Below, piece by piece: positions 2,403-23,778 of a DNA stretch of 64,000 nt. A program made the translations under genes and the position numbers. Location of the stretch: NCBI GenBank assembly GCA_030433255.1, contig JAUIMI010000001.1:311362-375361 (forward strand). The letters run 5' to 3'. Below the pieces are notes generated by a model. The model searched no databases and was not told the origin of the DNA. It saw only the letters and a list, made by a program, of their open reading frames with translations. This DNA comes from a bacterium (GTDB lineage: Bacteria > Patescibacteriota > Minisyncoccia > Phycocordibacterales > UBA1006). Each line of letters starts with the position of its first letter. Position 1 is the stretch's first letter.

Positions 2403-2437
2403 ATACCTTGAATTCTTTGAAACAAGGTATTTTTTAT
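2403..2437 (+). terminator. rho-independent terminator downstream of engB
   Basis: A 10-bp stem (AAATACCTTG ... CAAGGTATTT) is followed by a T-run. Confidence 0.6.
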
Positions 2438-2478
2438 TGATATACCTGTTATTATATAATATAACGTCGTAAAATATA

Positions 2479-2493
2479 TGTTGTGCGACGTTA
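2479..2493. repeat. left copy (attL-like) of a perfect 15-bp direct repeat TGTTGTGCGACGTTA
   Basis: The 15-mer is identical to the one at 19203..19217. It lies inside a short imperfect palindrome (TAACGTCG ... CGACGTTA) and sits 180 bp from an integrase pseudogene. Confidence 0.55.
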
Positions 2494-2675
2494 ATACAAG
2501 ATGTTTTTATGCCCTTTTAAGGGCATTTGACGTACATGCTTATTGAAACGGTGGTAACCTAAACATAAAGCATTATACTTTATAAAGATATTTCCGCTTT
2601 TGAGATATATTCATAGTTAAAAGTACATTTTGAATTATATCGCAATCCAACAAAAAAACAACCCTAAGGTCACTT

Positions 2676-3170
2676 TTACGAAGCCTGAAGTAGAACATCC
2701 CTCAATTTTAAGGCTTCCAATAATGAAGAGTCCAAGGTTAATGTTGGTTTGTTTTGGTTCAAATTGGATACTTCAGACTGTTGCCCTCCTTTTCTAGACA
2801 TATACTTTCCTGCCAATTCCTGATGACGGTTCGCACATAAATGTGTATAAGTAAATGAAGATTCAGGTTTTACATGTCTCAGAATCACCGAGACGTCTCT
2901 CATATTACCTCCCTGTTCTAAAATGCTATTCGCCTTGCCATGCCTAAAGCTGTGCGGTGTATAATTCTTGTCGATATTGGCATCTTCACACAGTAATTTC
3001 ATCCAACGTTGTACACTTCGCTGCGTGAATGGTTTCTTCGTTTTTGGATTAATCAAAAGTTCATCATGGTCAGTATCGAACCCTAGCCGTATCCCTAAAT
3101 AAATATTGAGCAAGAGAAGAGTAAATACAGCGATAGCTTCGAATTTGAAATAATTAAAGCCTATAACGAA
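2676..3170 (-). pseudogene. tyrosine recombinase / phage-type integrase, N-terminally disrupted
   Basis: The C-terminal catalytic region contains HSFRHG (the HxxR box) and a tyrosine in FTYTHL. A box I-like LNIYLGIRLG is present. The frame begins with TTG and an in-frame stop lies about 20 codons upstream. No core-binding domain can be recovered upstream. Confidence 0.6.
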
Positions 3171-3347
3171 TTATAGGCTAAACAATCAGTAGTGTTGGGA
3201 TATAGAATTCAACACCTTGTTTTTTGAATTAAGGTACTCGTACCCGTTTGGAGTTAGCTGATTAAGCTTTATTGTCTAACGTATTAAATATACTTGGTAA
3301 GCTTCTTCATTAGATCGTTTCATAACAGAACATTTAAAAAAGGAAAG

Positions 3348-3545
3348 TTATTTTACAAAAAGAAAATGAATAAAATAATTTGTCAAAAATTTCACTTCTT
3401 GTTTGGTCGGTCTTATAATACCAACATTGAATCCTATTTGGTTCAAGCGTGCTTGTAGAATTTTTACCTCAGTTGCCACATCTTTGGTATAGAAATGGTA
3501 ACGACCATCTCTGGCACCTGCTTTGACGTTTTGAGGCACTAACAT
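3348..3545 (-). pseudogene. orphan fragment of a peptidoglycan-binding (PG_binding_1-like) domain
   Basis: The segment TEVKILQARLNQIGF closely matches TEVKILQAHMNRLGF in the C-terminal PG-binding domain of the neighbouring 1020-aa protein. It is only 65 aa and has no signal peptide. Confidence 0.4.
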
Positions 3546-3679
3546 TGATCAGCGTAAGTATTACGTATTCGGACACTACCTTGAATTCTGCGAATACTAG
3601 TTTAAGTAATATAGGCTCTGTTTCAAAATGTTAACTTTCAATTTATATTAAAAAACACCATTTGGTGTTTTTTAAGTAA

Positions 3680-6600
3680 CTAATTCAATGATGTAACTCC
3701 ATCTAATGCCACTCCAGAAAGAGCATTTAAATGCCCTGCGGTTTCAGGTCCAATAATTCCATCAAGGATTAAGTTATTAGCTTGTTGGTATGAACGAATA
3801 CCTGCGTAGGTAAGCCCTCCGTAAATACCATCAAATGGTCCAATGGAATGGCCAAGTGAAGCAATACATTCTTGTGCTTGACGTATGTCATTTCCTGTCA
3901 TTCCTCGTTTGATTAATCGTCTGTAATTGATGAAACATTTGGCATCTTCTACAACAGGAGTTGATTCTACTTCTATTACTTCTTTCCCACAACTATTGTT
4001 AATCAATGATCTTGTAATTGGTCCAACATATCCGTCCTGAGTTGTACCTAGATATGCTTGCATACGTTTAATAGCTCCGTCAGTAATTGGTCCCAAGATC
4101 CCATCTACTTTCCCTGATGCAAACCCTAATCTATTCATATGTGCTTGAAGAATTTTAACTTCCGTTATGGTTTCATTTTCCCATGATGAGAAGCTTCCGT
4201 TGCGGTCTCCTACTTTCATGTTTTGATTTAGTATTTGAGATGATGGACATTGTTCCCCTTTTCCAAGCTCTTCAGAAACAGGAGTTCCAAAAATTTCTGC
4301 TAACTTTTCTTTTGATACACGCCTTGAACTTCCTTTTGAAGTTGAAGTCGTAGCATCATCATCCGTTAGCGTTACGATATGTGCTTGGTCAGCAACCGCA
4401 TCATACTCATCAGCACTTGCAGCAGCATTGATGCTAGCGGTGATACTTGCGGTGTCGGTTTGCACAAGGTCATCGTCAACACCTGTGACGGTAACCGTTT
4501 GAGGTGTATCCCAGTTTGCTGGTGTAAAGGTCAGTGAGCTTGGTGATACCGTTGCTTCGTTGGTGTCACTTGAACTCAGGTCGATGACAACATCTGAGGT
4601 TGGTTCAGCATCAAGCACAATGGTGTAGCTTGCTGTTCCTGCGTTTTCTGAAGCTGTTGATGTGTTTGATGATTGAGTGAAATCAGCCATATCATCATCA
4701 GTGATGATAATTGAAGCGGTTGCATCTGCTACCCCATCATAGGTATCATCAGAGGCAGCATCATTTACCGAAATCGTAAGTGTAGCTGAGTCATCACGGT
4801 CAAGATCATCGTTAACTGCTGTTACGGTGATGGTTTGGTTGACGTTCCAGTTACCTGTAGTAAAAGTCAGTGAACTTGGCGAGACGGTGGCTTCCCCAGT
4901 GTCACTTGAACTCAGGTCGATGACAACATCAGTAAGTGGCTGTGAACCCAACCGAACATTGAAACTCCCAGTTCCTGCATTTTCAAGAATGGTTAATCCA
5001 GTTGTGGTAATTCCACTTGGGTCGATGATAATAGAAGCGGCATCATCATCCGTTAGCGTTACGATATGTGCTTGGTCAGCAACCGCATCATACTCATCAG
5101 CACTTGCAGCAGCATTGATGCTAGCGGTGATACTTGCGGTGTCGGTTTGCACAAGGTCATCGTCAACACCTGTGACGGTAACCGTTTGAGGTGTATCCCA
5201 GTTTGCTGGTGTAAAGGTCAGTGAGCTTGGTGATACCGTTGCTTCGTTGGTGTCACTTGAACTCAGGTCGATGACAACATCTGAGGTTGGTTCAGCATCA
5301 AGCACAATGGTGTAGCTTGCTGTTCCTGCGTTTTCTGAAGCTGTTGATGTGTTTGATGATTGAGTGAAAGAAGTAACCACATTTACAATACGTGTTACTT
5401 CGATAGCATCATTTCCAGCCGCATCAGCTACATTATATGTGATAGTGTAACTACCAAGAGTGGATGTATCTACTGGATTTACAGTTACAATATTTACTGT
5501 GATATCTCCATCAAGATTATCTGTTGCAGCCGCTCCAGCATCTGAATATGGAGTATTTACAGGGACTGTTACAGGGTCACTCCCTGTAAGTGTTATAACA
5601 GGGGGTGTTGTATCTTGTAACCATAGTCTATTTTGAAAATCACCATTATCCCCATTGACTACGTAAACATCAATTTCCCCATCATTGTTTACGTCCCCAG
5701 TTGTAACCCCAAATGATTCCCCAGTATCTCCTGTAATGTTGTTTTGTGTAAAGTTTCCAGATCCATCATTTTCCCAAATAATATTCTGAAAACCAAAATA
5801 CATTGCAATAAGGATATCCAAATCACCATCACCATCAAAATCAACAATTTCTGAATCTTGAGCAGTACCTCCATAGTCATTAGCGATATTTTGAGAGGCA
5901 AATGTCCCATCATTATTATTTATCCAAAACCGATTTAGATTAACAGGTTGGTCATCATAGTATGAGGTTAGGTATAAATCAATATCATTATCACCATCTA
6001 TGTCACCGACAACTACTGAACGACCTGGGCAACCATTATTTTGATCCGTACATATATCACCAGTTATGTTACCACTTACAAAAGTTCCATCCCCATTTCC
6101 GAGCCATAATTTGTTCTGGTTATTATACGCTGCTCGTGAAGCGTAAATGTCTAGGTTTCCATCGTTATTAAAATCAGCCATTGCTACATCATCAGCAATA
6201 CCATCTCCTGAAATACTTCCATCAATGAAATTCCCAGTCCCATCATTTATCCAAAGAACATTGGTTCCGCCACTAAATGCTCCTACATAAATATCTAAAT
6301 CGCCATCATTATCAACATCGCCAATAACAACCGAACTAGACCGAGAAGTTGTTGAGTCAGCTGGAATATCGGCATTTGTAAATGTACCATCTCCATTTCC
6401 AAGCCATAGTTTATTTTTACTAAAACTATTGGTGACATAGATATCCAAATTCCCATCACCGTTAAGGTCTGCCATAGCTGCATCGGTAGTGTTTCCTTGG
6501 TCATCACCTAGAATATCAGAATTGGTAAAAGTTCCATCCCTATTTCCGATCCATAATTTATTTTGCTCTAATCGAGCACCTACATATATGTCTAAGTTTC

Positions 6601-6742
6601 CATCGTTGTTAACGTCACCCATTATGGCTGAACGTGAATTTCCTAAATCATTAGGAATATCTTGTGAAACGAATTCGGCATAAGCGCCTTGAGCACTAAA
6701 AGCAAGCGCAAGTAATAAAATAATCTTTGTATAATACTTCAT
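3680..6742 (-). CDS. large secreted FG-GAP/VCBS beta-propeller adhesin-like protein with Ig-like repeats and two C-terminal peptidoglycan-binding domains
   Basis: A signal peptide is present. There are seven or more D-x-N-x-D-G-x-L-D-I-Y-V calcium-binding FG-GAP repeats, a HYR/Ig-like segment, three beta-sandwich repeats of about 110 aa (two identical) and two PG_binding_1-like modules at the C-terminus. Confidence 0.8.
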   Translation of the reverse strand: MKYYTKIILLLALAFSAQGAYAEFVSQDIPNDLGNSRSAIMGDVNNDGNLDIYVGARLEQNKLWIGNRDGTFTNSDILGDDQGNTTDAAMADLNGDGNLDIYVTNSFSKNKLWLGNGDGTFTNADIPADSTTSRSSSVVIGDVDNDGDLDIYVGAFSGGTNVLWINDGTGNFIDGSISGDGIADDVAMADFNNDGNLDIYASRAAYNNQNKLWLGNGDGTFVSGNITGDICTDQNNGCPGRSVVVGDIDGDNDIDLYLTSYYDDQPVNLNRFWINNNDGTFASQNIANDYGGTAQDSEIVDFDGDGDLDILIAMYFGFQNIIWENDGSGNFTQNNITGDTGESFGVTTGDVNNDGEIDVYVVNGDNGDFQNRLWLQDTTPPVITLTGSDPVTVPVNTPYSDAGAAATDNLDGDITVNIVTVNPVDTSTLGSYTITYNVADAAGNDAIEVTRIVNVVTSFTQSSNTSTASENAGTASYTIVLDAEPTSDVVIDLSSSDTNEATVSPSSLTFTPANWDTPQTVTVTGVDDDLVQTDTASITASINAAASADEYDAVADQAHIVTLTDDDAASIIIDPSGITTTGLTILENAGTGSFNVRLGSQPLTDVVIDLSSSDTGEATVSPSSLTFTTGNWNVNQTITVTAVNDDLDRDDSATLTISVNDAASDDTYDGVADATASIIITDDDMADFTQSSNTSTASENAGTASYTIVLDAEPTSDVVIDLSSSDTNEATVSPSSLTFTPANWDTPQTVTVTGVDDDLVQTDTASITASINAAASADEYDAVADQAHIVTLTDDDATTSTSKGSSRRVSKEKLAEIFGTPVSEELGKGEQCPSSQILNQNMKVGDRNGSFSSWENETITEVKILQAHMNRLGFASGKVDGILGPITDGAIKRMQAYLGTTQDGYVGPITRSLINNSCGKEVIEVESTPVVEDAKCFINYRRLIKRGMTGNDIRQAQECIASLGHSIGPFDGIYGGLTYAGIRSYQQANNLILDGIIGPETAGHLNALSGVALDGVTSLN
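4354..4682. repeat. intragenic direct repeat, copy 1 (about 329 bp, identical to 5041..5369)
   Basis: Read by eye, the nucleotide sequence is identical to copy 2, offset by 687 bp (229 codons), inside the 3680..6742 CDS. Confidence 0.85.
5041..5369. repeat. intragenic direct repeat, copy 2 (about 329 bp, identical to 4354..4682)
   Basis: Same evidence as copy 1. The domain copy between the two (about 4700..5040) is diverged. Confidence 0.85.
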
Positions 6743-6857
6743 ATCAATTTAAATATTAACCTAAGTCATTATTATTTACAATATCCTTGAACGAAAATTT
6801 GACTTGCAAAAATTGCTTATTGAAGTATAGTTGTATTAAATTTTAAACAAGTAAATT

Positions 6858-7352
6858 ATGAAACAATTATTTCTTCTAGTATTGGTATTTTTCTCTATTA
6901 CAGTGCAAGCTCAAGTTGGGCTAGGTACCAACACCCCAGACCCTAATTCTATATTGGATTTAACAAGTAACAATAAGGGATTGCTTATCCCTCGAATGCT
7001 AACTAGTGATCGTTTAGCTATTACATCACCACCAAACGGGTTAATCGTATTTGATGTTGATACCAATGGCATATGCTATTTTTCCTCTACTTTGGATTGG
7101 GTTTGCATTGATGCAGAGTCTACTAATGGATGGGTGCAATCTGTTGATGGCACAACACCAGCAAGTGATGCAACTCAATCCATTGAGCGTTCTGGTGACC
7201 TAGAAATTTCAACCACAAGTTTTCAGATTAGTATCTCTGAGTCAGGTGGGATTACACTCAAAAACACCTCAAGTAATTCAAGTATAGAAATACAAAGCGA
7301 CGGTAAGATAAAGATGACCGGAGCAAGTGGAAGTTTTGTATACATTAATTAG
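6858..7352 (+). CDS. secreted hypothetical protein
   Basis: A signal peptide (MKQLFLLVLVFFSITVQAQ) is present. A conserved N-terminal block VGLGTNTPDPNSILDL..GLLIPRM..DRLAI..P.NGLIVFDVDTN resembles a motif I recall from Bacteroidetes surface proteins, but the family identity is uncertain. Confidence 0.5.
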   Translation: MKQLFLLVLVFFSITVQAQVGLGTNTPDPNSILDLTSNNKGLLIPRMLTSDRLAITSPPNGLIVFDVDTNGICYFSSTLDWVCIDAESTNGWVQSVDGTTPASDATQSIERSGDLEISTTSFQISISESGGITLKNTSSNSSIEIQSDGKIKMTGASGSFVYIN

Positions 7353-7450
7353 TTGAAAATTGAATTTAGAAAAGCCCTTACACTCGTATAGGCTTTTTTT
7401 TAAATTACTTAAAGGACATTTAATACAAGGATTACAATATCTAAAGGACA

Positions 7451-7490
7451 TTTAAAAACAGGCTATTTTTAAGTAGCCTGTTTGTTATTT
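7451..7490. terminator. bidirectional terminator between the convergent genes 6858..7352 and 7493..8863
   Basis: The hairpin ACAGGCTA-tttttaag-TAGCCTGT is flanked by an A-run and a T-rich run. A second, weaker hairpin lies at about 7371..7402. Confidence 0.5.
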
Positions 7491-7492
7491 AG

Positions 7493-8863
7493 TTAACGTA
7501 TAATTAATTTTTTAGATATTATCTTGTTGCTTGTAAGTATACTCACATGATACATTCCAGATGATAGATTAGGTAATTGTAAGCTTGTATTATCCGCCAA
7601 TAAACTACTATCATAATAAGCCATGGTTTTACCCAATGGATTATAGATAGTCACCTCTTGTATTGTAATAGCTTCGGGTAAGATAAAATGTATCTCTGTT
7701 GTTGCAGGATTTGGATATAAACGAATACTGTCAGTGGAGTCCTCAATATCTGAAACTCCCAAAGTAGCTTCATTTATGACATACATCTCAGTGATTAATT
7801 CATTTTCATATTGACCAACACCAATGTTGCCAGAAGTTAAGAGAACATTTGAAACTATCCCTTGATAAGGCATCTTTACAATAACGGATGAACCATATGC
7901 TCTATCAGCCGGAATAAAATTAGGATCTAGCGTCAAATTTGAGCCAGTATCGATGTAAATTCCTGCACTGGGATTCGGTTGTGATTGAAAACCAGCTACA
8001 TAATAGTCAAAACTTCCATCACTATTAAAATCATGTTCAAGAATATTAGCCTGTATATGATTAGGAATTACACTCGAACTTAACTCCGTAACACCATCTG
8101 AATCCACAAAATAAATATCAGATGTGTTGTTGTTAGTTTTAAGAATATACCTTCCAAATTCATTAAACACCAAAATGGTATCTGAACCCAATAAGCCTCT
8201 TGTACCTCTCAAGACATTATACGTGCCATTGTTGTTGCTAACCATAACATAACAATTATTATTCACATCATTGTTTGGTGTTGAGTTAAGAGAACTGGTA
8301 TCATCTACTATTTTTGTAAAGAATCCATTGGAATTTTCATAAATAATAGAACGTAAACGAAAACTTGCATCACGACCACTTGTTCGTAAATCAAGATCGC
8401 CATCATTATCAACATCGAAAAAATCAGCTATAACATCGTAAAGTCCAATGAGGTTTTGGGATACATTGTACCCTCCATTCCCGTCATCCATACGAATTTC
8501 TGCAAAAGGATTTGAATTGGGCAAATTAAGATTTGGCGTACCGATAATAAGAATATCTGGACCATACAGCCCATCAAGATCAGCCTGAAGTATTTTTCCA
8601 TACCCCACATCTGGCAATGTTCCCGTCTGAGCAAACATGTCATTTGTGTCATCAAAGTCGTAAATGCGAGTCCCAAGAATAGAATTATCCTCTATTCCAT
8701 ATCCGATTAATCGATTATGTAAACCATCTCCGTTAGTGTCGATAGGTAGAAATTCTCCTTTGACAGGAACGAGATTGTGCTGAATAGTTCCATAATTTAG
8801 TTGAGCACACACATTGAAAATAGGTGCAATTGCCATCATCAAAAACAAAATAATTTTTTTCAT
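7493..8863 (-). CDS. secreted FG-GAP-like repeat protein with a T9SS (Por) C-terminal sorting domain
   Basis: A signal peptide is present. Calcium-binding D-x-D-x-D-G repeats occur (FDVDNDGDLDL). The C-terminal 75 aa (LYPNPATTEIHF ... GMYHVSILTSNKIISKKLIIR) matches the type IX secretion CTD pattern. Confidence 0.7.
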   Translation of the reverse strand: MKKIILFLMMAIAPIFNVCAQLNYGTIQHNLVPVKGEFLPIDTNGDGLHNRLIGYGIEDNSILGTRIYDFDDTNDMFAQTGTLPDVGYGKILQADLDGLYGPDILIIGTPNLNLPNSNPFAEIRMDDGNGGYNVSQNLIGLYDVIADFFDVDNDGDLDLRTSGRDASFRLRSIIYENSNGFFTKIVDDTSSLNSTPNNDVNNNCYVMVSNNNGTYNVLRGTRGLLGSDTILVFNEFGRYILKTNNNTSDIYFVDSDGVTELSSSVIPNHIQANILEHDFNSDGSFDYYVAGFQSQPNPSAGIYIDTGSNLTLDPNFIPADRAYGSSVIVKMPYQGIVSNVLLTSGNIGVGQYENELITEMYVINEATLGVSDIEDSTDSIRLYPNPATTEIHFILPEAITIQEVTIYNPLGKTMAYYDSSLLADNTSLQLPNLSSGMYHVSILTSNKIISKKLIIR

Positions 8864-9037
8864 CTTTTTAAATTTTAAGGTTTATTTGATTTGATATTAC
8901 CATGAACTCTTTCTTTTTACTATAAACTGAAAAAGCCTAACACTATATGATTATATATTTACAGGATAACTGTATATTCCCTTGCTTTGTTCAAACACTT
9001 GTTTTAGTTTAGCTTTCATCCATAAAACAAAGAATAC

Positions 9038-13900: not shown

Positions 13901-14009
13901 CATAGGGAACCTCAATATCAATAGGAGTATCGAAATTGTAATACCCACGAAATCGATACTCCCAATTATAGAAATTAAGGGTTGCTTGTTCACTTCTTGT
14001 TAAACCCAT
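10950..14009 (-). CDS. FtsK/HerA/TrwB-superfamily P-loop ATPase (DUF87 or type IV coupling-protein-like) with an unknown 400-aa N-terminal domain, a K/E/P-rich linker and a C-terminal possible nuclease-like domain
   Basis: Walker A GATGVGKST is present, then FDPHGD, Walker B LYLDEFQNF and an AHQ motif. No TM helices are evident. The C-terminal roughly 120 aa show a D...E-I-S pattern weakly reminiscent of PD-(D/E)xK folds. Confidence 0.65.
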   Translation of the reverse strand: MGLTRSEQATLNFYNWEYRFRGYYNFDTPIDIEVPYVPFQHVSQNRPSIQDDGRAPSLFKQVTKLLAPPKEEEPEEDLIEVKPRFLEVSEKPQLVGLSISFPYGTEINPSRNIELLNLLSFTEHLLSFEIIGNSDTIQIQMVCSKQDRGRLKSQLSAYFPMVIIKTIEVDDFGFSNKNDIAIADFGLNSEYMRSIVTSDSFNIDPLTSVIATMEALQDDDVAVFQILFKGISSPLAKDTMYSVNDGAGGSFFSDAPEMPQCAKEKIAHPLFSVVMRIATQGKDNYRSQYLAQELARSISAVSTSQHNKLIPLSNEGYDYDFHKYNLHHRLSNRLGFVLNSKELNTFLHYPNKTVVSKKLQWQVGKTKRIHQKDNQGILIGVNTHNQEDIPVQLSYETRLSHTHVIGATGVGKSTLLANMMLADIENGMGCAMFDPHGDIIDDILERIPENRINDVVLIDPSDADFPIGFNLLEAHTDAEKIVLSSDLVSAFKRHATAWGDNMTAVLQNAVNTMLESTQGGTLIELKRFLLEEPYRVQYLKTVNDPSLHYYWNNEYPLVRKGIAPLLTRIDTFLRPKLVRYMLAQNKGVDVANCLNTNKIVLLKLSQGLIGEQNSYLLGSLFLAKFNQSALARQSKGKDSRKPFMLYLDEFQNFITPSIERILSGARKYGLGITIAHQELAQIEDAKLLNSVLSNPKTRICFRLGDSDAKRLESGFSYFEQDDLQSLGIGQAIMRVGSSSDDFNISTFPLSIAETNAEVNRDSIVAHTRKSYSKSKAELDELLASLLPKQTPQKTKLKTKTTEPKIEKSVEPVIVEDKKSEVEKPITETKPSPKTENLEKTDDLEARKEKYLQQAEEQEIVRQHRSIQNYIRSMALQRGFKATLEDSTLNGGKVDVSLLKDDIRIAIEISVTNRVDYEVQNIQKCLDDNYSLVYMISEDEKHLKNIKEQALKNISKKQHLKIHFFKSEELLLYLDALIQPKTKVKRVRGYRVNVDYKTDNDTNKQASITNIIMKALRGKK

Positions 14010-14014
14010 GTCAT

Positions 14015-14599
14015 CTATCTGATAAATACATCATTTAACATAGGCTTACGCTCTGCCTCACTGATAGAGCGGATTCCTTTATCGTTGGTAATGTCATCAA
14101 TGACTTTTAACACCGAAGATTGAGCGTAGCTCATAAACATACTGGCAGTATCTATCCTGTAATAGGTTACTGGATACAATTTTCTTGCAAGCCAACCACC
14201 TATAAATGGAATTTTAGCAACCAATATCTTGCCAATGGAATCTTTATACAATAACCACCAAGACACGAAAAAGCCATGACCAAACTTGGCTCCACAAATA
14301 TCATATTGGTAATCTTTCCATATAGCTCGTAAATAGATGCGAGAATGAGACATCGCTCCTCCTTCTTTAATGAATTTTTCTTTGATATTGATTTTTGTAA
14401 TGCCGTGAGATTCCAGTTCGGTTTTTAATAAGGCATAAAACTCTTTAGGTGAGTATTCAAAGTTATCAATAAGGGTACTCCACCGTGAGTGATAGTTTTT
14501 TCTGGTTTTACTGAAAATAAATCTTAAAACTAGAAAAGCAACAATTCCAGCTAGGACATACATCCCATATTTTGTTAGATAAAAAGTGAATTCATTCAT
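14015..14599 (-). CDS. hypothetical membrane-anchored protein
   Basis: It has a single N-terminal TM helix. It lies 5 bp upstream of the ATPase gene and 26 bp downstream of the AlaX-like gene on the same strand. Confidence 0.45.
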   Translation of the reverse strand: MNEFTFYLTKYGMYVLAGIVAFLVLRFIFSKTRKNYHSRWSTLIDNFEYSPKEFYALLKTELESHGITKINIKEKFIKEGGAMSHSRIYLRAIWKDYQYDICGAKFGHGFFVSWWLLYKDSIGKILVAKIPFIGGWLARKLYPVTYYRIDTASMFMSYAQSSVLKVIDDITNDKGIRSISEAERKPMLNDVFIR

Positions 14600-14625
14600 A
14601 GGGTTTCAAGTTTTAGTTGTTAGAC

Positions 14626-15534
14626 TTATATTAATTGTGTCTTTATTGATAAGGTTTTTTCCTCTTCATTATAGAAGCAGTCTACAGTAACTTTAGGTAA
14701 TTGGGACAAAGAGCTAACATGAGTTCCTCCACAAGGGATAGTAACAAATCTATCATTTATTTTTACTTTAAAATTTCGTTTAGCCCCTAATTGAATATTA
14801 TCTCCGAACATACTTACTTTAGAAGATTTATTGATATCTATAAGTTTGTTTAAACTACTCGACAACTCAATAGAAAACTTTTTAAAATCTAAGCTTTTGA
14901 ATTTAACTAAGTCAAACCCTTTCTTTGATAAACTTTTACCAATACGATATACATCAGTAGCATAATAAGTGTAGATTTTTGATTTCTGTATTGCTAAGGC
15001 ATCAAAATTTGGATTATTAAGATCATCTTTAAAATCCACCTCTTTTTTCCAAAATGAAGCTAGTTCTTCATTAAGAATTATTGACATCAAATGAACGGTA
15101 GTGTGTGTTTTAGAGAGATTTTCTCTAAATTTTTCGTCTACATATAACTCGCAATCTAAATCAATTAATGAGTTTTCATTTAATGAGTTTAAATCGTCAA
15201 TAATAAAATGCCCTATCATGGCAATATATATACCTTCTTGAAGCCCTTTATAAAAAGCACTTTTACTTTTGGGAAATACATTCTTTCTAGTATTTATGTC
15301 TATAATTATAATACGAGAGTCTTCAACCTTATATGTTTTTCCTTGAATGACTATTTTTCCTTTATCTCCTGGTTGATCTCCACCTAGATAATCTTCAGGG
15401 TGAAATGGACTCATGTCTGTACAAACATATAGACCCTCAGGAAAAGAAAAGACACCTTTTATTTTAGCTTTAGAATAGGTTGAATTTTCATAATATAATG
15501 CTTGGCTAGTTGTTGTTCTATTTGAGATTTTCAT
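14626..15534 (-). CDS. AlaX-M-type alanyl-tRNA synthetase-like trans-editing domain protein
   Basis: The N-domain signature is ALYYENS ... FSFPEGLYVCTDMSPFHPEDYLGGDQPGDKG, of the LYY ... FYP.GGGQP.D.G type. The editing-site zinc motifs HTTVHLM (HxxxH) and CGGTHV (CxxxH) are separated by about 115 aa, as in AlaRS/AlaX editing domains. Confidence 0.7.
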   Translation of the reverse strand: MKISNRTTTSQALYYENSTYSKAKIKGVFSFPEGLYVCTDMSPFHPEDYLGGDQPGDKGKIVIQGKTYKVEDSRIIIIDINTRKNVFPKSKSAFYKGLQEGIYIAMIGHFIIDDLNSLNENSLIDLDCELYVDEKFRENLSKTHTTVHLMSIILNEELASFWKKEVDFKDDLNNPNFDALAIQKSKIYTYYATDVYRIGKSLSKKGFDLVKFKSLDFKKFSIELSSSLNKLIDINKSSKVSMFGDNIQLGAKRNFKVKINDRFVTIPCGGTHVSSLSQLPKVTVDCFYNEEEKTLSIKTQLI

Positions 15535-16553
15535 AAGTTAATTATATAAGGATTAGTACTTTTTACAAACTGCATCTTCACTTTTGACCTAAGAGTCACT
15601 ATTCTTTGAAGCCAACGATCGTGTCCATCAAATTTTGCGGGGAACAATGATCTACCATGGACTGCTTTATCATTATCTATAATTAATAAATCGCCTGGTT
15701 TAAGAGCTATCTTTATAGCGCTTTCATGTATAAGTAATTTTAATTCTTTAAATGCTGTTTCTGCTTTTTTTGTTAAGAACTTGGTAGTATATAATGGATC
15801 ATACCTCAAGGTAAGTGTCTTTTTAAATTCTAATATTGACACCTTAACTTCTTTTTGAACACCATGGGCTTCGTCTGAAGAAATAATAAAATTGGGCATT
15901 AGTAATTGTTCAATTGTTTGTGGTTTTAACTTATAAAAGTCTATTTTAGAAATTAACGTATAAGCTTCTGGTGTTCCTCTTAAACATAATAATAGTATAT
16001 GATTGCACCTAAGGTTGTGAAATGCATCTTCTGTATGCCAATCTAAATAGACTCTCCCCGTTCCTAATTGTTTATTTTGGTCTTTTATTTTGGGAAAAAG
16101 ATTTTGTATTACAAGTCCTTTTCTTTGCGAAAAATAGCCATAAGGATATCCTATTAAATTAGCTATAGCAATAAGAATGATTTCACTGTAAGATGTCATT
16201 TTTAAATCTAAATTTCCAGTTGGCCCAAGATGTTGGTCTAGCAATAAATTTTCAATTAAAAAAGCACCTATAGTATTAGATTTATTTGCAAACTCAACAA
16301 TAGAATCTTCTAATTCATTAGGAAGCACATCTGAAACATCATCACTCGCCCTAGAAATATTGAAGTAATTTTTTTGATTAAACTTTTTTTCCGCTTTGAT
16401 GGAAACTTTATTTTTTATGAACTTATTTTCATCAGATGACAGTCTATAAAAAGATTCAAATTTTGTTAGCTGAATTTTTTCATGAATTTTTCTTAAGTCT
16501 TTCACTATATCTCTTTTTTTAGTAAAATTAGATTTATAACTATTTGTAACCAA
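15531..16553 (-). CDS. Fe(II)/2-oxoglutarate-dependent oxygenase of the TauD/TfdA/clavaminate-synthase-like family (putative amino-acid hydroxylase)
   Basis: WHTEDAFH (an HxE/D facial-triad motif) is followed by LLLCLR. The C-terminal GDLLIIDNDKAVHGRS ... RWLQR supplies the second His and an Arg, as in TauD/CAS-like enzymes. A 4-bp ATGA overlap links it to the downstream AlaX-like gene. Confidence 0.6.
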   Translation of the reverse strand: MVTNSYKSNFTKKRDIVKDLRKIHEKIQLTKFESFYRLSSDENKFIKNKVSIKAEKKFNQKNYFNISRASDDVSDVLPNELEDSIVEFANKSNTIGAFLIENLLLDQHLGPTGNLDLKMTSYSEIILIAIANLIGYPYGYFSQRKGLVIQNLFPKIKDQNKQLGTGRVYLDWHTEDAFHNLRCNHILLLCLRGTPEAYTLISKIDFYKLKPQTIEQLLMPNFIISSDEAHGVQKEVKVSILEFKKTLTLRYDPLYTTKFLTKKAETAFKELKLLIHESAIKIALKPGDLLIIDNDKAVHGRSLFPAKFDGHDRWLQRIVTLRSKVKMQFVKSTNPYIINL

Positions 16554-16630
16554 TACGGATTTTCCCTTAATTTTTAATGCTGATTATCTGAAAGACAATA
16601 ATTTCAAGTAGATTTACTTCATTATTCGAA

Positions 16631-17320
16631 ATGATGAACATCAGATTATTAATATTCGTAATCTTTCTTGCTCTTGGAATTGGATGCCATGCGGGCTCTT
16701 ATGCCTTCAATAATGAAAAACTTTTAGAACTATTATCGCAGGCTGAAAAACTGGAACAGAACAAGGAGTATTCAACCGCATTGAATGTATATAATGAGGC
16801 TCTGAAAATTGCATCCAAAGAAGAGCGTATTGAAGACGCCAGTTACATTTACAATAAAATAGGATTAGTCTATTACAGACAAAAGCAATACGAAACAGCA
16901 AAATCCAATTTTAAGACCAGCATCCTAAAATCCAATATTTCTAATAGTGCTGCAGATTCTTATTTCAATCTCTCGCTGATTTACAGAAAACAAAACTCAA
17001 AGGATAGCCTTCTATGGTCATTGAATAGGTCTTTGGAAATTTATGGTGGTTTGGAAGATAGCAACAGTAAATTTTCAACCTATTCCAAAGCTGGAATTCT
17101 CTATAAACAGCTGGGTATGTATGACAAAGCCATTGAATATTTGCTTTTGGCTTATGACGGATTAGATAATAAAGAAAATGAGTCCCAAAAAACTTCGGTT
17201 TGCTACACCATTGGTGAGACGCAACGCCTTTTGGGAAATTTAGACATTGCTAAAACTTATCTAAAAGAAAGCCTTCAGATTAGAAATAGACTTAATGATT
17301 CTCTTAAAACGTCTTCATAG
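16631..17320 (+). CDS. TPR-repeat lipoprotein
   Basis: A lipobox (LALGIGC) is present. Several 34-aa TPR-like repeats with an A/Y/L pattern follow. Confidence 0.6.
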   Translation: MMNIRLLIFVIFLALGIGCHAGSYAFNNEKLLELLSQAEKLEQNKEYSTALNVYNEALKIASKEERIEDASYIYNKIGLVYYRQKQYETAKSNFKTSILKSNISNSAADSYFNLSLIYRKQNSKDSLLWSLNRSLEIYGGLEDSNSKFSTYSKAGILYKQLGMYDKAIEYLLLAYDGLDNKENESQKTSVCYTIGETQRLLGNLDIAKTYLKESLQIRNRLNDSLKTSS

Positions 17321-17622
17321 TTAGCAGTGTTTTCGGCTATGGCTAATGCTTGACCACTATGAACTATATCATTATCCTTTACGAGAAGATTGCTAATTTC
17401 ACCACTCATTCTTGCATATTCCTTTTGAGGTGGAATTGTAGTAGTTATTATTACCTGTGACTGAATAATATCAGGATACTTAATATACCATGTTGCTAAA
17501 AACAATAAAAATATAACTACAAAAATTACCGTTATCCCCCATTTTAAAAAAACATTTGGTTGCTTTTCTAAAATTTCTCTAATTTGCTCACTGTGATTAT
17601 CGATTTCGTCAATTTTCATCAT
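17275..17622 (-). pseudogene. N-terminal fragment of an HlyD-family bacteriocin or peptide secretion accessory protein
   Basis: A TM helix is followed by IIQSQVIITTT-PPQKEYARMSGEISNLLVKDNDIVHSGQALA, typical of the first 110 aa of LcnD/ComB-type HlyD proteins. The ORF ends after 115 aa and overlaps the convergent TPR gene. Confidence 0.5.
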
Positions 17623-17876
17623 TAACTTCCTAATTCTAATTGATCTTTAACTAACTTATAATAGACTCCTTTATTATTTACTAACTTTTGATGATCACCT
17701 TCCTCAATTATTTCTCCTTTTTCTAAACAGCTCCCTAAATAATCTTTAATCTTAGCCCATGTACCATCACACCCATGACAATCAGACCAGTCACCTCCTT
17801 GAACTTTTTCAAGTACATCACTAGTGTTTACGTTTTCTGCTTTTGCTTTAAAAGCTTCAAGACTTAATCTCTTCAT
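17622..17876 (-). CDS. double-glycine-leader peptide-like ORF fused in frame to the C-terminal tail of a bacteriocin-type ABC exporter (remnant)
   Basis: The N-terminus MKRLSLEAFKAKAENVNTSDVLEKVQGG resembles a GG-type leader. The Cys-rich DWSDCHGCDGTWAKIKDYLGSC follows. The last 34 aa (LEKGEIIEEGDHQKLVNNKGVYYKLVKDQLELGS) match the conserved C-terminus of C39-peptidase ABC exporters. Confidence 0.45.
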   Translation of the reverse strand: MKRLSLEAFKAKAENVNTSDVLEKVQGGDWSDCHGCDGTWAKIKDYLGSCLEKGEIIEEGDHQKLVNNKGVYYKLVKDQLELGS

Positions 17877-17962
17877 AATAAAAAGTTTTATATAGTTTAC
17901 TTGCCTACTCTTTTAGCTTTTCGGCTCCCGCTATTATTATTTTCTAAATAAACGAAAAATAT

Positions 17963-17979
17963 TGGTCATTATTGACCAA
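17963..17979. promoter_or_regulatory. palindromic operator-like site TTGGTCA-tta-TTGACCAA overlapping a putative -35 element
   Basis: This is a near-perfect inverted repeat in the divergent intergenic region between the GG-leader ORF and the XRE regulator gene. TTGACC is followed about 15-17 nt later by TATATT. Confidence 0.4.
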
Positions 17980-18044
17980 ATAATTAAAAATTTATATTGT
18001 TAACTGTTTTTTGAGTTTCTCATAGAGTTTTTTCAGGTAATAAC

Positions 18045-18350
18045 ATGTTATGTTTTATCTTGCAATTGCTATTAATCATGTTTCCTATGAACTCATTACC
18101 CTTTGAGATTCTCTTTGAAGTTCTCGGCAATCGTATTCGTGATCTTCGACAATCAAAAAAGCTTTCACAAATTGAAGTAGCAGCAAGATGTGGACTGGAC
18201 GTTTCTAACTATAATAAAATTGAATTTAACAAAAGGCCACCATCACTACGTACGCTATTTAAAATTGCCATTGCTCTAGATGAACCTATCTCTAATTTCT
18301 TTAATGATGAAGTGTTTCTCTCATTTATCGAAGAACATGTGAAAGCTTAA
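18045..18350 (+). CDS. XRE-family helix-turn-helix transcriptional regulator
   Basis: HTH_3 signature LSQIEVAARCGLDVSNYNKIE is present. The likely true start is an internal Met at about 18087 (MNSLPFEIL). Confidence 0.7.
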   Translation: MLCFILQLLLIMFPMNSLPFEILFEVLGNRIRDLRQSKKLSQIEVAARCGLDVSNYNKIEFNKRPPSLRTLFKIAIALDEPISNFFNDEVFLSFIEEHVKA

Positions 18351-18572
18351 TAAAAATGTTGTTTTTAATAAATCAGTCTATCAAGTCTAAAGTTGTAATC
18401 TCATTAAATAGCTTTTAAATATGCTTGCTTTTTGGTTCTAGCAGTATTGTGTAGCAATGGCATTAAGTAAGTATTAGGCTAATGTCCACAGATATACTTT
18501 AAATTCTATTTTTTTAATTACGAAACCAAAAAAAAGCGTTAGCTTTTTAAAACAGCCAAACCAAAGAGATAG

Positions 18573-18899
18573 CTATAACCAGCTATCTCTTTGTAATTGC
18601 TTTCGTTCTTGTTCCTGTTTTATTTGTTCTATTCGGATATGGTCTGGAATGCGTTCATTTGCGTTGTACTTTGGTAAAGAAATTTCTTTTGTAGAACGCA
18701 TTTTTTGCGTTTCGAATTGTGAATGAGATATCCAGTCCCGTCGCTTAACCTTTCCAAACTCATCTCGCCATCCCAAAAGATTCCTCACAATCTTAAGATA
18801 CACACGCACCGCAGATCCACTCATACTTCCAATATGCTTATCAAAAAAAGCATTAGGCACTGGAGTCGTATTATTCAGTCGCATGAGCTTCAAAATCAA
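18573..18899 (-). CDS. truncated phage/plasmid replisome-organiser-like protein (N-terminal winged-helix domain only)
   Basis: VPNAFFDKHIGSMSGSAVRVYLKIVRNLLGW resembles Phage_rep_org_N/DnaD-like N-domains. It is only 108 aa. A 12-bp stem hairpin (AAAGAGATAGCT ... AGCTATCTCTTT) overlaps its 3' end. Confidence 0.35.
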   Translation of the reverse strand: MILKLMRLNNTTPVPNAFFDKHIGSMSGSAVRVYLKIVRNLLGWRDEFGKVKRRDWISHSQFETQKMRSTKEISLPKYNANERIPDHIRIEQIKQEQERKQLQRDSWL

Positions 18900-19197
18900 T
18901 TACTGGTAAATTATCATTATGATTTGGAAAGATCATAAAATTAGTATCTGGTTGATGATACAACTGTAAAAACCAACCGCCGTTGTTGGTTACTTTTACA
19001 ACACCTACTTTATGATAAATATGTTTGTCGTTATCAACCTTATTAACAGTTTTACGAGTAACAACGTTATAAAATTTAGTCATACTAAAATTCAATTTTA
19101 TGTACGTTTTAACCTTAGGGAAAACCCAATACAAATCAAAATCGAAAATATTTTGTTTCAATAGAAAGTCGCAAAACCCTTGACTTTTGTCGGACAA
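18871..19197 (-). CDS. hypothetical protein
   Basis: The ORF shows no similarity I can recognise. It is adjacent to the right-hand repeat. Confidence 0.3.
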   Translation of the reverse strand: MSDKSQGFCDFLLKQNIFDFDLYWVFPKVKTYIKLNFSMTKFYNVVTRKTVNKVDNDKHIYHKVGVVKVTNNGGWFLQLYHQPDTNFMIFPNHNDNLPVIDFEAHATE

Positions 19198-19202
19198 GTA
19201 GT

Positions 19203-19217
19203 GTTGTGCGACGTTAT
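19203..19217. repeat. right copy (attR-like) of the 15-bp direct repeat TGTTGTGCGACGTTA
   Basis: The 15-mer is identical to the one at 2479..2493. Confidence 0.55.
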
Positions 19218-19271
19218 ATTAAAATGACATATTTTATAAAAACCACCCTATTTACATACTTTTCCTAAAAT

Positions 19272-19305
19272 AAAAACCACCTAGTTTCTAAGGTGATGGT
19301 TTTTA
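19272..19305. terminator. bidirectional terminator downstream of rplI
   Basis: The hairpin AAACCACCT-agtttcta-AGGTGATGGTTT is flanked by A- and T-runs. Confidence 0.55.
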
Positions 19306-19435
19306 TCCCTCACAAGAAATACAAACATTCATTTCTTGTTCTTTTTGTTTACCTGCTACCTCTTCACTGGTAAATGGATCAATATAGGTATCTTTCATAA
19401 TTTTAATTATATTAAACGTGTATACAATAATTATA

Positions 19436-23771: not shown

Positions 23772-23778
23772 CAAAACA

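What the first reader, a model, noticed from the sequence alone, without database searches (positions are those of the whole stretch)
2479..19217. Integrative element of about 16.7 kb bounded by a perfect 15-bp direct repeat, inserted between convergent engB and rplI
TGTTGTGCGACGTTA occurs at 2479..2493 and again at 19203..19217, and I did not see it anywhere else in the window. A tyrosine-integrase pseudogene lies immediately inside the left repeat. The interior also holds an intact large serine recombinase, a replisome-organiser fragment, an XRE regulator and secreted cargo. Base composition shifts visibly upward across 3.7-8.9 kb. engB and rplI each retain their own intrinsic terminators just outside the repeats, as expected for an insertion into an intergenic site. 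The element looks partly decayed, with integrase and HlyD fragments, yet keeps several large intact ORFs.
Basis: partly seen in the sequence, partly recalled or inferred. Interest (0 to 1): 0.75.

Follow-up and report, generated by a model that had tools for sequence, protein, structure and literature searches.

The report
Mobile element inserted at candidate dif
A 16.7-kb decayed mobile element, of a kind otherwise seen mostly in marine Flavobacteriaceae, sits in the chromosome of an ultra-small (CPR/Patescibacteria) bacterium. It is inserted exactly in a conserved 28-bp site at the replication terminus that looks like this lineage's undescribed chromosome-dimer-resolution (dif) site.

Summary
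A 15-bp repeat alone proves little, since the window holds 28 exact direct-repeat pairs of at least 15 bp.

Comparison settles it. Two conspecific metagenome contigs (97.5-98.4% identical flanks) carry the empty site: engB, one 15-mer, a 31-aa micro-ORF, rplI. Their sequence equals the window's two outer flanks joined.

The 15-mer is the right arm, plus two central bases, of a 28-bp site: ACGTCGTAAAA-TATATG-TTGTGCGACGT. Ten more distant relatives keep this site, with only the central hexamer varying. In every case it lies where gene orientation converges and GC skew flips from plus to minus. I read it as the lineage's dif (inferred).

The island is a circular permutation of an element whose core is a Xer-like integrase, a dif-like site, a 70-aa protein and a RepO-like initiator. 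That core is unsplit in Winogradskyella, Polaribacter and other Flavobacteriaceae.

In the window copy the integrase keeps only its last third and RepO has an internal deletion. Cargo includes a protein with a T9SS sorting domain.

The parts
1800..2396 (+). engB-like GTPase, the last gene of the left replichore
   Evidence: Pfam MMR_HSR1. The synteny M23 peptidase - 114-aa ORF - engB is conserved in CPR MAG contigs.
2403..2435 (+). Terminator-like hairpin after engB (ATACCTTG, 12-nt loop, CAAGGTAT, T-run)
   Evidence: Read directly from the sequence. Not called by the scanner because of the loop length. Conserved in L125 and L126.
2464..2491 (+). Intact 28-bp dif-like site (attL): ACGTCGTAAAA TATATG TTGTGCGACGT
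   Evidence: 22/22 arm matches. Identical to the empty sites of L125 and L126. Arms are invariant in L004-L013. Lies at the GC-skew and gene-orientation switch.
2479..2493 (+). Direct-repeat copy 1 (last 2 nt of the centre, the right arm, then TA)
2676..3113 (-). Remnant of the element's Xer-like tyrosine recombinase. Only residues ~186-293 of ~303 are kept, plus a 40-aa tail.
   Evidence: Pfam Phage_integrase positions 85-169/172. Alignment to full-length relatives. Full-length relatives match the XerA, XerC and XerD models end to end but below their cut-offs.
3348..3545 (-). PG_binding-like gene fragment
   Evidence: tblastn hits overlap those of the C-terminal domain of the FG-GAP protein, in the same frame, in L013 and L015.
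3680..6742 (-). 1020-aa FG-GAP / Ig-like / peptidoglycan-binding surface protein (cargo). It contains a 330-bp perfect internal repeat.
6858..7352 (+). 164-aa ORF, no family match
7493..8863 (-). 456-aa protein ending in a T9SS type A sorting domain (cargo carrying a Bacteroidota-type secretion signal)
   Evidence: PF18962 at 1e-10. TIGR04183 scores 48.5 bits against a cut-off of 23.
9038..10978 (+). Large serine recombinase with a C-terminal HTH. It lies inside the element, not at a junction.
   Evidence: Resolvase, Recombinase and HTH_3 domains; CcrB- and XisF-like. 40% identical to the recombinase of the related element L099.
10950..14009 (-). 1019-aa DUF87/TrwB/TraG-type ATPase (putative DNA translocase or coupling protein)
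   Evidence: 54% amino-acid identity to L099, 71% DNA identity to L119. The same gene occurs in L119, L120 and L123.
14015..14599 (-). 194-aa ORF upstream of the ATPase, shared with related elements
   Evidence: The DNA alignment to L119 runs through it. No family match.
14626..16553 (-). Two cargo genes: a 302-aa protein with weak AlaX-like similarity, and a 340-aa VioC/GntD-like Fe(II)/2-oxoglutarate hydroxylase
16631..17320 (+). TPR protein
17275..17876 (-). Decayed peptide-export locus: an 84-aa ORF whose last 30 aa are the C-terminus of an ABC exporter, followed by a HlyD-type adaptor fragment
18045..18350 (+). XRE-family regulator
18573..18899 (-). RepO-like replication initiator with an internal deletion (residues ~59-122 of 170 are missing)
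   Evidence: phrog_18020 'replication initiation O-like'. Split alignments to the 170-aa relatives.
18871..19083 (-). 70-aa conserved protein of unknown function ('o70'), always the first gene after the element's site
   Evidence: 96% identical to a Winogradskyella litorisediminis protein. The AF2 model is four beta strands with no fold match.
19187..19214 (+). Hybrid dif-like site (attR): TTGTCGGACAA GTAGTG TTGTGCGACGT. Left arm 7/11, centre 2/6, right arm 11/11.
   Evidence: The left arm, centre and inner flank match the attP of L095 and L094.
19202..19216 (+). Direct-repeat copy 2
19276..19297 (-). Terminator-like hairpin downstream of the micro-ORF and rplI
19303..19398 (-). Conserved 31-aa micro-ORF (..YIDPFT..NVCISCEG*), the true right-hand neighbour of the site
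   Evidence: Called as a gene in L002, L125 and L126.
19436..19879 (-). rplI (ribosomal protein L9), the first large gene of the right replichore
   Evidence: synteny.

Best explanation
Positions 2494-19201 are a degraded integrated copy of a plasmid-like mobile element.

The element's conserved core is: a Xer-like tyrosine recombinase (Int), a 28-bp dif-like core site about 200 bp downstream, a 70-aa protein (o70), and a RepO-like initiator. It also carries a large DUF87/TraG-type ATPase and a large serine recombinase.

The circular form recombined at its Int-adjacent site with a nearly identical 28-bp chromosomal site. That site lies between engB and a micro-ORF/rplI in a CPR (Paceibacteria-like) bacterium, at the point where the two replichores meet. 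I interpret it as the lineage's dif site.

The two partner sites share only the right arm and the two adjacent central bases, which together give the 15-bp repeat. The exchange therefore happened on the right-arm side. It left an intact dif next to engB and a hybrid site next to rplI.

Shown:
- The insertion, and an empty site in conspecifics.
- The exact junctions.
- Colinearity of the rejoined island ends with the unsplit Int-site-o70 region of relatives.
- Conservation of the chromosomal site and its position at the terminus.
- The decay of int and repO.

Inferred:
- That the chromosomal site functions as dif.
- Which recombinase did the work. One option is the element's Int, tolerant of heterology in the centre as IntDOT is. 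The other is the host Xer making one strand exchange, finished by replication, as for CTX-phi.
- That in Flavobacteriaceae the Int/site pair serves the circular form, for example in multimer resolution, while another recombinase integrates the element there.
- That the element crossed between Flavobacteriaceae and the CPR lineage.
For: Empty site. L125 and L126 have 97.5-98.4% nucleotide identity to the window flanks. They hold one 15-mer, and the left and right alignments overlap by exactly 15 bp. Both junctions are reproduced in two other assemblies. Five further relatives have engB and rplI only 127-310 bp apart, with a single site between them.

The site. The arms GTCGTAAAA and TTGTGCGAC are invariant in 11 genomes whose flanking proteins are only 45-78% identical. 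Variation is confined to the central hexamer: TATATG, TGTATA or GGTATA. In all 10 relatives and in the window, GC skew is positive to the left and negative to the right of the site. Long ORFs are almost all on the + strand to the left and on the - strand to the right. In 1.78 Mb of fetched loci, sites this good occur only at this locus, in the Int-o70 spacer of elements, and in the pattern-selected viral contigs. Only two such sites exist in the window.

The element.
- The order Int, site, o70, RepO is contiguous in at least 20 loci.
- The window's rejoined ends align colinearly with that spacer across the junction.
- Int relatives match the Xer models along their full length.
- o70 homologues are named from cultured Flavobacteriaceae; the closest, at 96% identity, is from Winogradskyella.
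- The o70/RepO DNA is 88-91% identical to that of L118-L123.
- One cargo protein carries a T9SS sorting domain.

Host. The closest EngB relatives and the syntenic contigs are Patescibacteria MAGs.

Precedent. The same line of reasoning identified dif in Legionella through the element LME-1 (PMC9765430).
Against: No xer gene of the host was seen; none is in the window. No complete genome could be scanned, so 'one site per chromosome, opposite the origin' was not verified. That the site works as dif is inference only.

The site differs from the canonical XerCD dif predicted for Flavobacteria and other bacteria. So its assignment to a Xer system rests on architecture and position.

In Flavobacteriaceae chromosomes the Int-site-o70 region is unsplit, even on contigs of 119-875 kb. 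The site is therefore not their integration junction, and its normal role in the element is unknown.

No circular contig of the element was found.

The window copy lacks a functional Int. Either the decay followed integration or another enzyme did the integration.

The CPR assignment of the host rests on MAG labels and synteny, not on a phylogeny made here. One syntenic contig (L004) is labelled Crocinitomicaceae.
Confidence: 0.72

Rival explanations
1. The island is a site-specific insertion as described, but the conserved chromosomal site is not dif. It would be some other conserved element, such as a protein-binding palindrome, a regulatory hairpin or part of a bidirectional terminator, that the element's integrase happens to use as attB.
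For: No Xer gene and no functional data are available. The outer parts of the site form a 13-bp perfect palindrome around a 16-nt spacer in the empty site, so it could fold as a hairpin between convergent genes. The sequence is unlike the canonical XerCD dif.
Against: engB and the rplI side each have their own terminator-like hairpins apart from the site. No Rfam family matches there. Invariant arms with a free 6-nt centre are the signature of a tyrosine-recombinase core site, not of a hairpin, where the loop would be free and the stem would covary. The site sits exactly at the skew and orientation switch in 11 genomes. The element's cognate recombinase is Xer-like.
Confidence: 0.2
2. This is a strict IMEX. 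The host's own Xer recombinase(s) integrated an already defective, integrase-less element through its dif mimic, and the element's Int played no part.
For: The integrated copy has only the last third of Int, yet the insertion is polymorphic among strains about 98% identical. So the copy may have been defective on arrival. Identity between the partner sites is limited to one arm plus 2 nt of the centre. That is the pattern of the one-sided exchanges used by CTX-phi-type IMEXs (PMC3442271, PMC4246890). One intact and one modified dif flank the element, as for LME-1.
Against: Every related element keeps a full-length Xer-like Int immediately upstream of the site, which argues that Int is the cognate enzyme. 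Rearrangement after integration explains the truncation equally well: a PG-binding fragment and cargo now abut the int remnant.
Confidence: 0.25
3. The large serine recombinase (9038-10978) integrated the element, and the 15-bp repeat is incidental.
For: It is the only intact recombinase in the island. In L120 and L123 a homologous serine recombinase lies at the edge of the element next to chromosomal genes.
Against: It lies 6.5 kb or more from either junction. The junctions fall exactly in the Int-adjacent core site of the family. Established knowledge of the family is that serine integrases exchange at a 2-bp crossover and do not leave 15-bp repeats. The partner sites have the 11-6-11 architecture of tyrosine-recombinase sites.
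Confidence: 0.03
4. The repeat is a chance match and the 16.7 kb is ancestral DNA lost in other genomes, or an assembly chimera.
For: A window of this composition has 28 exact repeats of at least 15 bp by chance-level processes.
Against: The conspecific empty sites are joined precisely at the 15-mer. Rejoining the island ends reconstitutes the attP region of related elements. Both junctions appear in independent assemblies.
Confidence: 0.01

Closest known systems
LME-1 of Legionella pneumophila and the XerL/dif system (Nicholson et al. 2022, PMC9765430)
   Same: A mobile element carries a partial mimic of a conserved ~29-bp intergenic site that lies at the GC-skew inflection. Integration duplicates the att sequence and leaves one intact and one modified dif. 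In that study the element's att site is what revealed a previously unrecognised dif in the lineage.
   Different: In that paper the chromosomal recombinase XerL is necessary and sufficient for recombination at the site, and this was shown experimentally. Here the element family encodes its own Xer-like recombinase next to the site, the host is a CPR bacterium, the arms are only partly symmetric, and nothing has been tested functionally.
Classical IMEXs: CTX-phi, TLC-phi and VGJ-phi of Vibrio (PMC4246890, PMC6744903, PMC3442271), and the gonococcal genetic island (own knowledge)
   Same: They integrate at dif through a dif-like attP. Homology is restricted to one side of the central region, implying a single strand exchange completed by replication. 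The integrated element is flanked by dif and a degenerate dif.
   Different: IMEXs are defined by lacking their own recombinase. This family has one. The element here resembles a plasmid or integrative mobilisable element (RepO-like initiator, TraG/DUF87 ATPase, relaxase in some relatives), not a filamentous phage.
dif-flanked proviruses of Bacteroidota: BMV microviruses (PMC3091885) and phiCjT23-like phages in Flavobacterium (PMC9719478)
   Same: Mobile elements from the same phylum as this element's main hosts are found flanked by dif-like repeats.
   Different: Those use the canonical Bacteroidota XerCD dif (e.g. ..CTATAATTTATATTATGTAAAAT) and have no integrase. The site here has different arms and matches the CPR terminus site, not the dif predicted for Flavobacteria.
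CTnDOT/IntDOT-type recombination with a heterologous overlap region (PMC2034462, PMC2817482)
   Same: The partner sites share only about 2 bp next to one cleavage point and differ in the rest of the central region. IntDOT makes a homology-dependent first exchange and then a homology-independent second one. After replication this would give exactly the attL and attR seen here.
   Different: Int here is a ~300-aa Xer-like enzyme with no arm-binding domain, whereas IntDOT has one. No biochemistry exists for it.
Plasmid or prophage multimer-resolution modules with an adjacent recombinase and site (Cre/loxP of P1; xerS next to difSL in streptococci, PMC1914069)
   Same: A recombinase gene lies immediately next to its ~30-bp site, which has two arms around a short spacer. 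The module sits beside the replication genes and stays unsplit while the element resides in Flavobacteriaceae chromosomes.
   Different: A resolution role is only inferred. Here the module has demonstrably been used, at least in CPR genomes, for chromosomal integration.

Membership tests
Chromosomal dif (Xer) site | About 28 bp: two ~11-bp arms with partial dyad symmetry around a ~6-bp centre, intergenic and AT-rich | tested here: met
   ACGTCGTAAAA TATATG TTGTGCGACGT. The reverse-complemented arms match 9/11. The site is intergenic.
Chromosomal dif (Xer) site | Located at the replication terminus (GC-skew switch, convergence of gene orientation) | tested here: met
   Skew is positive to the left and negative to the right, and ORF strand is + to the left and - to the right, in 10 relatives and in the window. 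This was tested only on flanks of 1.5-45 kb, not on whole chromosomes.
Chromosomal dif (Xer) site | Conserved across related genomes, with arms more constrained than the centre | tested here: met
   Eleven genomes have invariant arm cores and three variants of the centre.
Chromosomal dif (Xer) site | Single copy per chromosome | tested here: inconclusive
   There is one copy per fetched locus and none elsewhere in 1.78 Mb of loci. Whole genomes were not available.
Chromosomal dif (Xer) site | Bound and recombined by the host Xer recombinase(s), and needed for dimer resolution | not testable with these tools
   No host xer gene is in the window. This needs an experiment.
IMEX (integrative mobile element exploiting Xer) | Integrated at dif and flanked by dif and a dif-like site | tested here: met
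   attL scores 22/22 and attR 18/22. This is conditional on the site being dif.
IMEX (integrative mobile element exploiting Xer) | The element carries a dif-like attP | tested here: met
   Reconstructed attP and the sites of relatives.
IMEX (integrative mobile element exploiting Xer) | No recombinase of its own; integration depends on the host XerC/D | tested here: not met
   The family encodes a full-length Xer-like Int next to the site. The window keeps a remnant of it. I therefore do not file it as an IMEX in the strict sense.
Tyrosine-recombinase integrative (mobilisable or conjugative) element | The integrase gene is adjacent to the attachment site, and the integrated copy is bounded by a direct repeat of the shared core | tested here: met
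   The int remnant ends 185 bp from attL. The 15-bp core is repeated at both ends.
Tyrosine-recombinase integrative (mobilisable or conjugative) element | An empty attB exists in related genomes | tested here: met
   L125 and L126 are conspecific. L006, L007, L009, L010 and L012 are more distant.
Tyrosine-recombinase integrative (mobilisable or conjugative) element | Transfer functions (relaxase, coupling protein, mating-pair formation) | tested here: inconclusive
   The window has only the 1019-aa TraG/DUF87-type ATPase. Relatives L118, L121 and L122 have a T4CP plus a relaxase. No mating-pair genes were seen.
Tyrosine-recombinase integrative (mobilisable or conjugative) element | An excised circular form is detectable | not testable with these tools
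   No circular contig was found. Read-level data are needed.
Large-serine-recombinase integrative element | The recombinase lies at the element's end, and the junctions are its attL and attR with a 2-bp crossover | tested here: not met
   The gene is internal, at 9038-10978. The junctions fall in the Int core site.

The most novel reading that the evidence does not exclude
This element family moves between marine Flavobacteriaceae and CPR/Patescibacteria cells, possibly epibionts living on them. It can settle in the CPR chromosome because its own Xer-like recombinase/site pair is cognate with, or evolutionarily the source of, the CPR clade's non-canonical dif/Xer system. On this reading the island would be three things at once: the first handle on chromosome dimer resolution in CPR bacteria, a host-symbiont link written in DNA, and a natural replicon-plus-integration module for CPR genetics. 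The 17-nt identity (left arm plus centre TATATG) between the Winogradskyella-type element site and the CPR site could then be a footprint of past passage through a CPR dif.
Probability: 0.3. Interest if true: 0.85.

Novelty: new variant of a known kind. Interest (0 to 1): 0.68.

Why it matters
In the paper library I searched, I found no description of a dif site or of dif-targeting elements in Patescibacteria.

If the 28-bp site is dif, it makes chromosome dimer resolution in these reduced genomes directly testable. It also gives a one-line sequence marker for their replication terminus.

The island is strain-polymorphic. Its closest relatives are in cultured Flavobacteriaceae, and its cargo carries a Bacteroidota-only secretion signal. 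Together these are concrete evidence of recent gene flow between a CPR bacterium and a candidate host phylum.

The core module (Int, site, o70, RepO) is a candidate vector backbone for organisms that still lack genetic tools.

Tried and rejected
1. The repeat alone as evidence. Rejected, because 28 comparable repeats exist in the window.
2. Host is Bacteroidota, my first guess from the T9SS tail. Rejected, because EngB relatives and synteny are Patescibacteria MAGs.
3. The site is an RNA gene or a tRNA/tmRNA 3' end. There is no Rfam or ARAGORN hit at the site.
4. Internal extra dif-like sites or a tandem array inside the island. None rises above shuffled background.
5. The element site mimics the Flavobacteriaceae dif. 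Rejected, because the predicted Flavobacteria dif sequences differ.
6. Circular contigs of the element. None found.
7. Relatives among curated plasmids and phages. Only 22-28% identity at the protein level, and no DNA hit to the site.
9. Taxonomy of the cargo through homologues of the T9SS-tail protein. Only four hits, none named.
10. The source organism's name through exact cluster look-up. No name on record.
11. A viral-contig scan with o70. Nothing found.
12. The ORF at 3348-3545 as the integrase N-terminus. Rejected, because it is a PG_binding-like fragment.
Full report
**1. The observation**

TGTTGTGCGACGTTA is present at 2479-2493 and at 19202-19216. There is no other copy even with two mismatches, and nothing beyond the 15 bp aligns between the two places.

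The repeat alone is not significant. The window contains 28 exact direct-repeat pairs of 15 bp or more, most of them AT-rich.

One detail already pointed to a real junction. The outer left flank (2457-2469, TAATATAACGTCG) is the reverse complement of the sequence that runs from the end of the right copy into the outer right flank (19209-19221, CGACGTTATATTA). Joining the two outer flanks therefore rebuilds a symmetric site.

**2. Gene content of the interval**

Reading from left to right, the interval holds:
- An integrase C-terminal fragment at 2676-3113(-).
- A PG-binding fragment.
- A 1020-aa FG-GAP/Ig-like/PG-binding protein.
- A 456-aa protein with a T9SS type A sorting domain (TIGR04183, above its cut-off).
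- A 646-aa large serine recombinase.
- A 1019-aa DUF87/TrwB/TraG-type ATPase.
- A VioC/GntD-like hydroxylase and a TPR protein.
- Remnants of a peptide-export locus.
- An XRE regulator.
- A RepO-like remnant and a 70-aa ORF ('o70').

Outside the interval the genes are housekeeping genes: an M23 peptidase, engB, rplI, an S41 protease, ATP synthase, a release factor and Obg.

**3. The host**

A scan of one genome per species with EngB returned Patescibacteria MAGs as the closest relatives, labelled Paceibacteria or Campbellbacteria-like, at up to 73% identity. Ten of them share the synteny M23 - 114-aa ORF - engB, and seven of these (L004-L007, L009, L010, L012) continue with rplI - S41 and further downstream genes in convergent orientation. 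So the backbone is from a CPR bacterium, not from Bacteroidota as the T9SS tail had first suggested.

**4. Empty sites**

In L006, L007, L009, L010 and L012, engB and rplI are only 127-310 bp apart.

Two conspecific contigs are decisive. L125 (ERZ27309150) and L126 (ERZ28655600) are 97.5-98.4% identical to the window's flanks. They have engB, one 15-mer, a 31-aa micro-ORF and rplI. The alignments of the window's left and right flanks overlap on them by exactly the 15-mer.

Both occupied junctions are also reproduced in two other assemblies. The interval is therefore a strain-variable, site-specific insertion.

**5. What the target is**

Every relative carries, just after engB and in the same orientation, the sequence (A)CGTCGTAAAA-N6-TTGTGCGAC(G/A)T. 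The arm cores GTCGTAAAA and TTGTGCGAC are invariant in 11 genomes whose flanking proteins are only 45-78% identical. The six central bases take three forms: TATATG, TGTATA and GGTATA.

The two arms are imperfect inverted repeats, matching 9 of 11.

In all 10 relatives and in the window, GC skew is positive to the left of the site and negative to the right. Long ORFs are almost exclusively on the + strand to the left and on the - strand to the right. This is the signature of the replication terminus.

No known RNA family or tRNA lies at the site, and both neighbouring genes have separate terminator-like hairpins.

These are the criteria that identified the Legionella dif through its element LME-1: an intergenic site of about 30 bp, AT-rich, with two arms around a short centre, conserved, and at the skew inflection (PMC9765430). 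I therefore read the site as the dif of this CPR clade. That is an inference. No host xer gene was seen, and whole genomes could not be scanned.

**6. Anatomy of the junctions**

- attL (2464-2491) is the intact site.
- attR (19187-19214) is TTGTCGGACAA GTAGTG TTGTGCGACGT. Its left arm matches 7 of 11, its centre 2 of 6 and its right arm 11 of 11.

The 15-bp repeat is thus the last two central bases, the right arm, and TA. No other site above shuffled background exists in the window.

**7. The element**

Homologues of the integrase fragment are Xer-sized, about 295-314 aa once the start is placed correctly. They align end to end with the XerA, XerC and XerD models, but below the cut-offs of those families.

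In L094 and L095, then in 22 metagenome loci found with o70, and in seven loci from NCBI and Logan assemblies, the order is Int, about 200 bp, a dif-like site, about 90 bp, o70, then a RepO-like 170-aa protein.

On the window's minus strand the same genes lie at the two ends of the island. The int remnant runs into attL, and o70 and RepO run inward from attR. Rejoining the ends (reverse complement of 2494-2800, the 15-mer, reverse complement of 19061-19201) gives a sequence colinear with the Int-o70 spacer of L118-L120, L124, L096 and L095. This includes the hairpins on both sides of the site.

So the island is a circular permutation of this element, opened exactly at its Int-adjacent site.

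The window copy is decayed. Int keeps only residues ~186-293, and RepO lacks residues ~59-122.

The large ATPase, the ORF upstream of it and the serine recombinase are shared with L099, L119, L120 and L123. The rest is cargo.

**8. Two orientations**

The elements' sites come in two classes. In one, the Int-proximal arm equals the chromosomal right arm; the window, L094, L095 and L099 are of this class. In the other it equals the left arm; L096, L098, L106, L107, L118-L124 are of this class.

In L003, the closest CPR relative, the left arm after engB is followed by element-type centre and arm and then by an 80%-identical o70 pointing the other way. That is a related element inserted at the same site in the opposite orientation.

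L104 and L105 show a third case: a contig with CPR-like synteny whose chromosomal genes abut the site and o70.

**9. Where the family lives**

The named homologues of o70 are from cultured marine Flavobacteriaceae: Winogradskyella litorisediminis at 96% identity, plus Polaribacter, Dokdonia, Yeosuana, Psychroserpens and Pontimicrobium. Only one named homologue is from a Paceibacteria MAG.

In those genomes the core is unsplit inside contigs of 119-875 kb, next to defence genes. It is accompanied either by a T4CP-plus-relaxase module or by the large ATPase plus a serine recombinase. One distant relative also has a Bacteroidetes-type integrase at its end.

The predicted Flavobacteria dif (e.g. 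TTGTACTATAATTTATATTATGTAAAAT) is different from the site here (PMC3025954 supplement).

I infer from this that in Flavobacteriaceae the Int/site pair is an internal module of the circular form, for instance for multimer resolution. Another recombinase would integrate the element there. In the CPR genomes the Int/site pair met a matching chromosomal site.

The island's o70/RepO DNA is 88-91% identical to that of the Winogradskyella-type elements, the ATPase region about 71% and the int fragment about 69%. It belongs to the same family, but it is not a copy of any element sampled here.

**10. Mechanism**

The partner sites share the right arm and only two adjacent central bases. attL keeps the chromosomal centre and attR keeps the element's centre. 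Two routes give exactly this outcome:
- One strand exchange on the right-arm side, resolved by replication, as for CTX-phi (PMC3442271).
- An ordered pair of exchanges, the first homology-dependent and the second homology-independent, followed by replication of the heteroduplex, as for IntDOT (PMC2034462, PMC2817482).

Which enzyme acted, the element's Int or the host's Xer, cannot be decided here.

The hybrid attR has four mismatches in one arm and a foreign centre, and Int has been lost. Both predict a stable insertion, as shown for LME-1's modified downstream dif.

**11. Classification**

The element works like an IMEX or like LME-1, but it fails the defining IMEX criterion of having no recombinase of its own. 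It passes the tests for a tyrosine-recombinase integrative element. It is not a serine-integrase insertion.

I rate it a new variant of a known kind. I found no paper on dif or on dif-targeting elements in Patescibacteria in the library searched.

**12. Limits**

- Function as dif is untested.
- The host assignment rests on MAG labels and synteny.
- The direction and recency of the cross-phylum transfer are inferred.
- The role of o70 is unknown.

Noticed in passing
window 19303-19398 (-): A 31-aa micro-ORF (MKDTYIDPFTSEEVAGKQKEQEMNVCISCEG) lies between the dif-like site and rplI. Its YIDPFT...NVCISCEG* ends are conserved in L004, L006, L007, L125 and L126. No function is known.
   Followed up: partly
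L083-L093 (IMG/VR contigs); e.g. L084 7327-7354: Eleven 'viral' contigs carry the same two arms with various central hexamers and none of the window's genes. L084 is a tailed phage (terminase, SU10-type portal), and the site lies in the divergent intergenic region upstream of the terminase. These may be phages with a dif-like attP, or prophages lying next to a host dif.
   Followed up: partly
window 4353-4682 and 5040-5369: A 330-bp stretch is repeated with 100% identity inside the FG-GAP/Ig-like gene, with a 64%-identical copy between the two. This is either a very recent domain duplication or an assembly collapse or expansion.
   Followed up: no
window 17622-17934 (-): Rfam reports a DUF805b RNA motif at 17902-17934. 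It lies just upstream of an 84-aa ORF whose N-terminus looks like a double-glycine leader peptide (..LEKVQGG) and whose last 30 aa are the C-terminus of an ABC exporter. This looks like a deletion-fused remnant of a bacteriocin-type export locus.
   Followed up: partly
L004 10701-12757; L005 10624-11651: The interval to the right of the dif-like site varies in other relatives too. L004 has a ribBA-like gene between the micro-ORF and rplI. L005 has an HTH protein and a pilin-like protein between the site and rplI. L008, L011 and L013 have no rplI next to the site.
   Followed up: partly
L004 (JBLIKX010000004.1): A contig fully syntenic with the CPR backbone is deposited in a MAG labelled Crocinitomicaceae (Flavobacteriales). 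This is probably a binning error. It is worth a look, however, given that the island's relatives are in Flavobacteriaceae and co-abundance could cause such binning.
   Followed up: no
L118-L123, site at e.g. L118 9864-9891: The Winogradskyella-type elements carry ACGTCGTAAAA TATATG. This is identical over 17 nt, including the otherwise variable centre, to the CPR chromosomal site, and is followed by a poor right arm. It may be a footprint of earlier recombination with a CPR-type site.
   Followed up: partly
window 23690-23772 (+): ARAGORN calls a tRNA-Leu(GAG) on the + strand in a region where every other gene is on the - strand. Rfam's tRNA model does not report it at gathering threshold.
   Followed up: no
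window 14626-16553 (-): The cargo includes a VioC/GntD-like arginine or enduracididine beta-hydroxylase next to a protein with weak similarity to the AlaX editing domain. This is an unusual small biosynthetic pair for a reduced genome.
   Followed up: no
window 10487-10534: A 48-bp near-perfect palindrome (24-nt arms, 92% complementary, no spacer) lies inside the C-terminal HTH region of the serine recombinase gene. The adjacent 10509-10921 is 84% identical to a separate HTH_3 gene region in L119.
   Followed up: no
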